Source of the DNA: Escherichia coli
Lineage (GTDB): Bacteria; Pseudomonadota; Gammaproteobacteria; Enterobacterales; Enterobacteriaceae
NCBI RefSeq assembly: GCF_048403405.1
Contig: NZ_CP183129.1
Direction: 5' to 3' (one strand)
DNA: 64,000 nucleotides
Under the pieces are notes generated by a model. It was not told the origin of the DNA, ran no database searches, and worked only from the letters and a program-made list of their open reading frames with translations. The position numbers and the translations under genes were made by a program. Below are positions 5,068 through 5,303 of the stretch, in pieces (within the stretch, counting starts at the first letter, position 1; the number at the start of each line of letters is the position of its first letter).

Positions 5068-5303
5068 TCATCTAACTCCTGAAAAATTTGAAAACCAGAA
5101 CCTCGCTTAGGCCTGTGTCCATACTACGTGGGTAGGATTATTCTGCGTACTACGCTGTTGTCCCTTACGTGCTGATAAGGGCTGGCAGGTTTCCGGCTTG
5201 CTTCGTTGAGTTCACTACGCTAAAGCTCCGTGTCCACATAACCCAGCTCGGAGGCATGACCTTCTCTGGTTCGTTCCATCTAAAATGTCTATAACTGACA
5301 TGG

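What the first reader, a model, noticed from the sequence alone, without database searches (positions are those of the whole stretch)
5100..5300. Unexplained GC-normal non-coding segment within the AT-rich orphan array
This roughly 200-bp stretch has much higher GC than its neighbours, contains short internal repeats (tacgtg, ctacgct) and has no convincing ORF. It could be a remnant of an insertion sequence end, a fragment of another Rhs or H-repeat element, or a structured RNA. I could not assign it.
Basis: seen in the sequence. Interest (0 to 1): 0.3.

Follow-up and report, generated by a model that had tools for sequence, protein, structure and literature searches.

The report
IS3 and Rhs scar in orphan array
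The GC-normal 200-bp patch is ordinary genomic debris: the last ~70 bp of an IS3 insertion sequence joined to a ~50-bp dead piece of an Rhs toxin gene and the 114-bp tail that always follows the neighbouring DUF6258 immunity gene.

Summary
GC is 0.50 at 5100-5300 against about 0.29-0.32 in the flanking genes, and no credible ORF is present. The short repeats are at chance level. The segment is a composite of three relics in an E. coli rhsB-locus orphan toxin/immunity array. (1) 5070/5077-5140 is the right end of IS3: the last 12 transposase codons plus the terminal inverted repeat, with the terminal CA lost. (2) 5141-5189 is a fragment of Rhs core, 95% identical to K-12 rhsC and equal to residues 1153-1169 of the window's own Rhs; it has one codon deleted and two stop codons. 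(3) 5190-5303 is a spacer that in the loci examined always directly follows the DUF6258 immunity gene (5304-5624, minus strand). Other strains show the history. In Z142-6 the spacer leads into an intact displaced Rhs tip. In ATCC 8739 and REL606 that tip is cut to 74 bp by ISAs1. In O157:H7 ISAs1 has also removed most of the spacer. In this lineage IS3 cut the tip and was then itself mostly deleted. Rfam, folding and covariation give no support for an RNA. This is a known kind of thing and of low interest.

The parts
5070..5140 (+). Remnant of the right end of an IS3-type insertion sequence: the last 12 codons of the transposase orfB (LTPEKFENQNLA*) plus the right terminal inverted repeat. The IS body would have lain to the left. 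The terminus reads GGATTA instead of GGATCA.
   Evidence: BLAST gives 5077-5146 against the K-12 IS3 right end at 90%, and thousands of IS3 copies match at 88-97% on chromosomes and plasmids. The alignment and codon-level reading extend the homology to 5070 (the 4949..5110 ORF ends ...LTPEKFENQNLA). It is the only IS3-derived stretch in the 64 kb. The 'TA' at 5139-5140 is ambiguous: either a mutated IS3 CA or the Rhs TA.
5141..5189 (-). Dead fragment of Rhs core coding sequence. It is the start of a displaced (orphan) Rhs tip, cut off by the IS3 end.
   Evidence: 42 bp are 95.2% identical to K-12 rhsC. The fragment is 84-85% identical to the window's own rhs at 7980-8023 and to its orphan at 3131-3171, in the same orientation. 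The local score is 63, against 21.7 +/- 3.1 for shuffles. The minus frame reads LPALIST*GTTA*YAE against main Rhs residues 1153-1169, [17 protein letters not shown].
5190..5303 (-). 114-bp non-coding spacer: the 3' flank of the DUF6258 tip/immunity module. Its distal edge (5189/5190) is a sharp junction with Rhs core sequence.
   Evidence: It is collinear with the DUF6258 gene and the Rhs fragment in all six sequences aligned. It is found in 535 genomes, on chromosomes only, at 80-100% identity. No homology to Rhs core or to anything else in the window. No RNA family, fold or covariation signal.
5304..5624 (-). DUF6258 family gene (presumed immunity gene of a lost Rhs C-terminal toxin), the gene to which the spacer belongs.
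   Evidence: Pfam PF19772 at 57.6 bits, cut-off 25. PGAP annotates it as 'DUF6258 family protein'. In Z142-6 it directly follows a full-length Rhs gene.
5056..5069 (-). Left junction region between the IS3 interior and the leader of the pentapeptide-repeat ORF. It holds a GGAGG ribosome-binding site (CCTCC at 5061-5065) before the ATG at 5055. That CCTCC is the IS2 target duplicated in related strains.
   Evidence: IS3 homology ends between 5069 and 5077. Strain WP2-W18 carries a 1,331-bp IS2 with a CCTCC duplication at this point.

Best explanation
The segment is a three-part scar left by successive rearrangements in the orphan toxin/immunity array of an E. coli rhs locus (the rhsB site, between yhhJ and nikR). 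It has no function of its own. Step 1 (inferred from Jackson et al. 2009, and matched by strain Z142-6): a new Rhs C-terminal tip with its DUF6258 immunity gene and about 114 bp of 3' flank recombined into the rhs core. This shunted the previous tip downstream. That tip kept about 261 bp of core, which begins at codon 1153 ([10 protein letters not shown]...). The spacer/core junction at 5189/5190 is the edge of that event. Step 2 (shown by sequence): an IS3-type element came to lie inside the retained core piece, 49-51 bp from its start, with its right end facing the DUF6258 gene. Step 3 (inferred): a deletion or other rearrangement with one end inside IS3, about 70 bp from its right end, removed the rest of IS3 and the rest of the old tip. 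That joined the stump to the leader of a pentapeptide-repeat ORF from another displaced module. The stump then decayed: the terminal CA was lost, and the Rhs piece acquired two stop codons and lost one codon. The GC step arises because IS3 (0.44), Rhs core (0.55; the main rhs is 0.60) and the spacer (0.48) are not AT-rich, unlike the tip and immunity genes on either side (0.29-0.32).
For: IS3 end. Rhs core fragment with the same orientation, disabling mutations and a score far above shuffles. Breakpoint: six sequences are collinear from window 5139 rightward; to the left, Z142-6 continues as Rhs core for 261 bp (93-97% to main rhs genes) into a 774-bp orphan plus yibG, while the window, SW4848 and JNE21 switch to IS3. 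Independent erosion at the same spot: ISAs1 leaves 74 bp of core in ATCC 8739 and REL606, and in O157:H7 it reaches into the spacer. The scar is old and inherited: the same junction lies in a 6.2-kb block that is 97% identical at the rhsA locus of SW4848 and JNE21, and the two stop codons are shared. Nothing suggests an independent function: Rfam's best hit is 13.8 bits against a gathering score of 44; fold z-scores are +0.43 and -1.18; the covariation term is +0.17; no terminator is predicted; the ORFs are unsupported. The framework of displaced tips that retain core fragments is in PMC2935791.
Against: No complete IS3 at this junction, and no pre-deletion form of the left junction, turned up among the listed matches in the 5,426 complete E. 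coli genomes. The left flank is in 273 genomes and the segment in 272, so steps 2-3 are inferred from the end product. The 'TA' at 5139-5140 can be read either as a mutated IS3 terminus or as Rhs sequence. The right junction may therefore not be a clean transposition junction, and no target duplication can be checked. The origin of the 114-bp spacer is unknown: no homologue was found, and a 22-mer scan of 100,044 species-representative genomes gave 0 hits. There are effectively only two to three spacer haplotypes, so the tests for selection and covariation have little power. No expression data were available.
Confidence: 0.88

Rival explanations
1. The conserved 114-bp spacer (with or without the Rhs piece) encodes a structured small RNA or a cis-regulatory RNA element, for example a 3'-UTR element of the DUF6258 immunity mRNA.
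For: The spacer is kept next to the DUF6258 gene in 535 genomes at 80-100% identity, and its GC content differs from that of the gene.
Against: No Rfam family comes near threshold. The minimum free energy is no better than shuffles on either strand, z +0.43 and -1.18. The alignment fold has a covariation term of +0.17, and its one compensatory pair lies in the Rhs-coding piece. No terminator-like hairpin is predicted. O157:H7-type genomes keep the gene after losing all but 24 bp of the spacer.
Confidence: 0.04
2. The junction between the Rhs fragment and the IS3 end acts as a fortuitous hybrid promoter on the minus strand (GGGACA-16 nt-AATAAT, 5164..5137). It would drive the otherwise silent downstream ORFs: the pentapeptide-repeat ORF with its GGAGG ribosome-binding site, the NTF2 immunity gene and yibA.
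For: A promoter-like site straddles the junction, and its -10-like hexamer exists only because of the junction and the C-to-T state of the IS3 terminus. The ATG of the next ORF lies about 80 bp downstream, behind a good ribosome-binding site. The scar is retained at two different rhs loci.
Against: The site matches only 9 of 12 positions. The region has 6 such sites against 2.9 +/- 1.8 expected by chance, so the match is not evidence. PGAP treats the pentapeptide ORF as two pseudogene pieces and the next NTF2 gene as frameshifted. Many close relatives tolerate an IS2 inserted between this site and the ORF. Retention is explained equally well by linkage.
Confidence: 0.07
3. The minus-strand frame through the spacer (TTG at 5311 to the stop at 5165; about 40 codons open in all relatives) encodes a small protein.
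For: The frame is open across the spacer in all six sequences compared.
Against: There is no ATG or GTG start and no ribosome-binding site, and the TTG overlaps the DUF6258 stop codon. The 16-17 substitutions fall 7/6/4 over codon positions, and most change the amino acid. The only Pfam hit is an irrelevant 15-bit match. An open frame of 38 codons in one of six frames is common by chance at this GC content (own estimate: (61/64)^38 = 0.16 per frame).
Confidence: 0.02
4. The segment is a fragment of an H-repeat (ISAs1) element.
For: ISAs1 lies at the equivalent position in ATCC 8739, REL606 and O157:H7, and an ISAs1 fragment lies at window 1132-1566.
Against: The segment has no similarity to the window's ISAs1 fragment or to the ISAs1 flanks of L002 and L011. 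In the alignment the ISAs1-side sequence of ATCC 8739 and REL606 is unrelated to window 5060-5138, which matches IS3.
Confidence: 0.01

Closest known systems
Dissociated (orphan) Rhs C-terminal tips that retain core fragments, produced by C-terminal displacement (Jackson et al. 2009, PMC2935791; orphan rhs-CT/immunity arrays, Poole et al. 2011, PMC3150448)
   Same: A piece of conserved Rhs core lies in the same orientation as the full rhs gene, directly after the immunity gene of a newer tip, inside a string of AT-rich tip and immunity genes. The intact form of the same module (261 bp of core, a C-terminal tip and a sel1 immunity gene) exists in strain Z142-6.
   Different: Only 49 bp of the core piece survive here, with two stop codons and one codon missing. 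The PxxxxDPxGL end of the core, the toxin tip and its immunity gene are all gone. It is a relic of an orphan, not an orphan that could be reactivated by recombination.
IS3 (IS3 family, 1,258 bp): solo terminal remnants left by IS-associated deletions
   Same: The last 64-71 bp match the IS3 right end at 90-97%, including the orfB stop codon and the right inverted repeat. The closest copies are IS3 variants that share the AAAACCAGAACC stretch (strain 118UI).
   Different: There is no left end, no transposase genes, and the terminal 5'-CA-3' is TA. It cannot transpose, and it is not annotated in the RefSeq records.
ISAs1 / H-repeat elements at the distal end of E. coli rhs loci
   Same: In other strains they play the same eroding role at exactly this position in the array.
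   Different: There is no sequence relationship to the segment in this window.

Membership tests
IS3 insertion sequence (IS3 family) | Right terminal inverted repeat and adjacent sequence homologous to IS3 | tested here: met
   Window 5077-5140 is 90% identical to K-12 IS3 and up to 96.6% to IS3 variants. At codon level the homology reaches 5070.
IS3 insertion sequence (IS3 family) | Element termini 5'-TG...CA-3' (from own knowledge of the IS3 family) | tested here: not met
   The terminus reads GGATTA, against GGATCA in the K-12 and 118UI copies. No left end exists in the window.
IS3 insertion sequence (IS3 family) | orfA/orfB transposase with a programmed -1 frameshift | tested here: not met
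   Only the last 12 codons of orfB are present. A BLAST of the whole IS3 against the 64 kb finds nothing else.
IS3 insertion sequence (IS3 family) | Short direct target duplication flanking the element | not testable with these tools
   The left end and its flank are deleted.
Orphan (dissociated) Rhs tip module | Fragment of Rhs core homologous to, and co-oriented with, the full-length rhs gene | tested here: met
   Window 5141-5189 against window 7980-8033 and against K-12 rhsC; residues 1153-1169.
Orphan (dissociated) Rhs tip module | Core end motif (PxxxxDPxGL) followed by a variable C-terminal toxin domain | tested here: not met
   The fragment stops at the IS3 junction, 17 codons in. Z142-6 keeps the continuation.
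Orphan (dissociated) Rhs tip module | Cognate immunity gene immediately downstream of the tip | tested here: not met
   Beyond the IS3 stump lies an unrelated pentapeptide-repeat ORF. In Z142-6 the cognate gene is yibG (sel1).
Any described RNA family (Rfam 15) | Covariance-model score at or above the family's gathering threshold | tested here: not met
   The best hit overlapping the segment is U6 at 13.8 bits against 44, E = 2.8.
DUF6258 (PF19772) gene, neighbour that owns the spacer | Pfam score above the curated cut-off | tested here: met
   57.6 bits against 25.

The most novel reading that the evidence does not exclude
The spacer/core junction (5189/5190), conserved in every variant and at three different rhs loci, could be the closure point of the circular intermediate proposed for tip exchange. 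The spacer would then be a cis-acting site needed to mobilise the DUF6258 tip module. Alternatively, the IS3/Rhs junction could have been co-opted as a promoter that keeps downstream orphan immunity genes expressed.
Probability: 0.06. Interest if true: 0.4.

Novelty: already known. Interest (0 to 1): 0.08.

Why it matters
It matters little beyond annotation. The result removes an 'unassigned' patch from the window and adds two features missing from the RefSeq annotation: a solo IS3 right-end stump and a 49-bp Rhs core relic. It also supplies a worked example of how IS elements (IS3, ISAs1, IS2) repeatedly erode one spot in an Rhs orphan array. The scar is a useful lineage marker. The identical junction at the rhsA locus of some strains and the rhsB locus here shows that a 6-kb block of orphan modules has moved between rhs loci.

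Tried and rejected
- **Structured RNA:** rejected. An Rfam E-value scan of 4600-5900 gave nothing. Single-sequence folds of both strands were no better than shuffles. RNAalifold on six variants showed no covariation.
- **Terminator for the DUF6258 gene:** none predicted.
- **Coding:** rejected. The small ORFs are not conserved or not supported.
- **Spacer as decayed Rhs core:** rejected. Local alignment to the main rhs and to the orphan stops at 5189. In the intact Z142-6 relative the in-frame upstream sequence is a stop followed by unrelated residues.
- **H-repeat fragment:** rejected.
- **Origin of the spacer outside E. coli:** led nowhere. A 22-mer scan of the species-representative genomes gave 0 hits. 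PLSDB plasmids gave only one 10-kb E. coli record.
- **Pre-deletion state of the left junction:** none turned up among the listed matches in complete E. coli genomes.
- **Internal repeats as a signal:** rejected as chance.

Full report
**Observation**

The window's first 12 kb is an E. coli rhs locus. A 100% identical stretch in strain 4621 is annotated, on the minus strand, as follows:
- nikR
- RHS element core protein (window 11488..7289)
- a hypothetical protein and an NTF2-fold immunity protein
- DUF6258 protein (5624..5304)
- two pentapeptide-repeat pseudogene pieces
- a frameshifted NTF2 immunity gene
- yibA
- an RHS core pseudogene and a SEL1 protein
- IS630 and ISAs1 fragments
- yhhJ

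Inside this AT-rich string the 200-bp window 5101-5300 has GC 0.505, against 0.27-0.35 on either side. The whole 64 kb is 0.514. The quoted hexamer and heptamer repeats are present, but about 7% of shuffles have as many repeated 6-mers or 7-mers. One TACTACG copy lies in the IS-derived piece and the other in the Rhs-derived piece, so that pair joins unrelated pieces and is best read as coincidence. The observation therefore stands, apart from any weight placed on the repeats.

**Dissection**

A BLAST of 5080-5310 against 5,426 complete E. coli genomes gave 16,674 places, 1,524 of them on plasmids. Only 272 genomes hold the whole query. The ubiquitous part is query 2-59/67, which lies under 'IS3-like element IS3 family transposase' annotations.

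*IS3 stump.* In K-12 the match is the extreme right end of IS3. Window 5077-5140 is 90% identical to it and up to 96.6% identical to IS3 variants such as the one in strain 118UI. Read as codons, the homology starts at 5070: LTPEKFENQNLA* against IS3 orfB ...LSPEQFENKNLA*. The terminus reads GGATTA where IS3 has GGATCA. No other IS3 sequence exists in the 64 kb.

*Rhs core relic.* Immediately to the right, 5139/5141-5189 is Rhs core:
- 95.2% identity to K-12 rhsC over 42 bp.
- 84-85% identity to the window's own rhs at 7980-8033 and to its orphan at 3131-3184, in the same orientation. The local score is 63, against 21.7 +/- 3.1 for shuffles.
- On the minus strand it reads LPALIST*GTTA*YAE, against residues 1153-1169 of the main Rhs, [17 protein letters not shown]. 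That is one codon lost and two nonsense codons.

*Spacer.* The remaining 114 bp (5190-5303) match nothing else in the window.

**Comparative series**

Six sequences are collinear from window 5139 rightward, through the spacer and the DUF6258 gene. To the left they differ.
- **Z142-6.** A full Rhs gene is followed directly by the DUF6258 gene and the spacer. Then come 261 bp of core, 96.9% identical to that strain's own rhs, running into a 774-bp orphan tip and yibG. This is the intact arrangement expected from C-terminal displacement, in which a new tip shunts the old tip and its retained core piece downstream (PMC2935791).
- **ATCC 8739 and REL606 (rhsC locus).** Only 74 bp of core remain before ISAs1-side sequence.
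- **O157:H7.** The ISAs1 side abuts at the equivalent of window 5279. A 198-bp deletion has taken the core piece and all but 24 bp of the spacer. This explains why the DUF6258 gene is in 836 genomes but the spacer in only 535.
- **This window, SW4848 and JNE21.** The core piece is cut after 49-53 bp by the IS3 end.

In SW4848 and JNE21 the same junction lies at the rhsA locus (yibH side), inside a 6.2-kb block that is 97% identical to window 3082-9322. The two stop codons are shared. The scar is therefore old, and it has moved with its array between rhs loci. Many close relatives also carry a 1,331-bp IS2 (TAGACTGG...CAAATCCA, with a 5-bp CCTCC duplication) at window 5061-5065. That is a later, independent insertion.

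**Mechanism**

*Shown:* the identity, orientation and breakpoints of the three pieces, and the existence of intact and differently eroded forms.

*Inferred:*
1. The spacer is the 3' flank that arrived with the DUF6258 tip, and 5189/5190 is the edge of that displacement event.
2. An IS3 element came to lie in the retained core piece.
3. A rearrangement with one end about 70 bp inside the IS3 right end removed the rest of IS3 and the rest of the old tip, joining the stump to the leader of a pentapeptide-repeat ORF.

No genome with a complete IS3 at this site, or with the left flank free of IS3, turned up among the listed matches. The dinucleotide at 5139-5140 can be assigned to either partner. 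The exact order and nature of steps 2-3 therefore remain inference.

**Tests for a function of its own**

- Rfam: the best overlapping hit is 13.8 bits against a threshold of 44.
- Folding: z = +0.43 on the minus strand and -1.18 on the plus strand.
- Alignment fold: covariation term +0.17, with one compensatory pair out of 40, lying in the Rhs piece.
- No terminator is predicted.
- A 9-of-12 promoter-like site straddles the Rhs/IS3 junction on the minus strand, upstream of the pentapeptide ORF. Such sites are not significantly enriched here: 6 against 2.9 +/- 1.8.
- The plus-strand 41-aa ORF is broken in all relatives. The minus-strand frame is open, but it lacks a proper start and its substitutions show no coding pattern. 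There is no credible Pfam hit.

The power of the conservation tests is low, because there are only two or three spacer haplotypes.

**Comparison and novelty**

The segment is a relic of two well-known kinds of element. One is a displaced Rhs tip that keeps a piece of core (PMC2935791, PMC3150448). The other is a solo IS3 end. It fails the membership tests for a functional IS3: no CA terminus, no left end and no transposase. It also fails those for a usable orphan tip: no core end motif, no toxin domain and no cognate immunity gene. The only piece without an assigned origin is the 114-bp spacer. It was found only next to DUF6258 genes in the loci examined, and a 22-mer scan of the species-representative genomes gave no hit. 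Nothing here would surprise a specialist, so interest is low.

Noticed in passing
window 5061-5065 (L004 2268-3598): Many near-identical strains (H6-H15) carry a complete 1,331-bp IS2 with a CCTCC target duplication. It sits exactly on the ribosome-binding site of the pentapeptide-repeat ORF, about 5-12 bp to the left of the IS3 stump. The site is polymorphic among close relatives.
   Followed up: yes
window 3082-9322 vs L003 2001-8234 and L008 1941-8167: A 6.2-kb block of the orphan array, including the IS3 scar, is about 97% identical between the rhsB locus (this window, yhhJ-nikR) and the rhsA locus (yibH side) of strains SW4848 and JNE21. Part of it (5139-8794) is also at the rhsC locus of ATCC 8739 at 96%. 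Whole arrays appear to move between rhs loci.
   Followed up: partly
window 4562-4776: This stretch is about 83% identical to the K-12 rhsB 3' end/yhhH junction in some 2,700 genomes. The 3' part of the 'pentapeptide-repeat' ORF (5055..4690; PGAP calls it two pseudogene pieces) therefore appears to be the end of a displaced RhsB-type tip fused to unrelated 5' sequence.
   Followed up: partly
window 5700-5900: A second GC-normal patch (0.47) lies just upstream of the DUF6258 gene. Homology to Z142-6 runs to window 5775, which corresponds to about the last 58 bp of the Rhs toxin gene that precedes DUF6258 there. The cognate toxin has been lost while the immunity gene is kept. The stretch 5776-5900 was not assigned.
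   Followed up: partly
window 5137-5164, minus strand: A promoter-like site, GGGACA-16 nt-AATAAT. Its -10-like hexamer is created by the Rhs/IS3 junction and the T at the IS3 terminus. It lies about 80 bp upstream of the pentapeptide ORF's ATG (5055). The match is weak (9 of 12) and untested.
   Followed up: no
L009 (E. coli E16, rhsD locus) 2868-4716: A complete IS3 abuts an orphan RHS core pseudogene at the rhsD locus of another strain, with its right end again facing the Rhs fragment. IS3 next to orphan Rhs pieces may be a recurring arrangement.
   Followed up: no
window 5304-5703: The DUF6258 ORF is annotated with different lengths in different strains: 321 bp here, and 303, 312, 360 or 402 bp elsewhere. 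The Pfam match starts at profile position 33 of 136, so the copy here may be N-terminally shortened.
   Followed up: no
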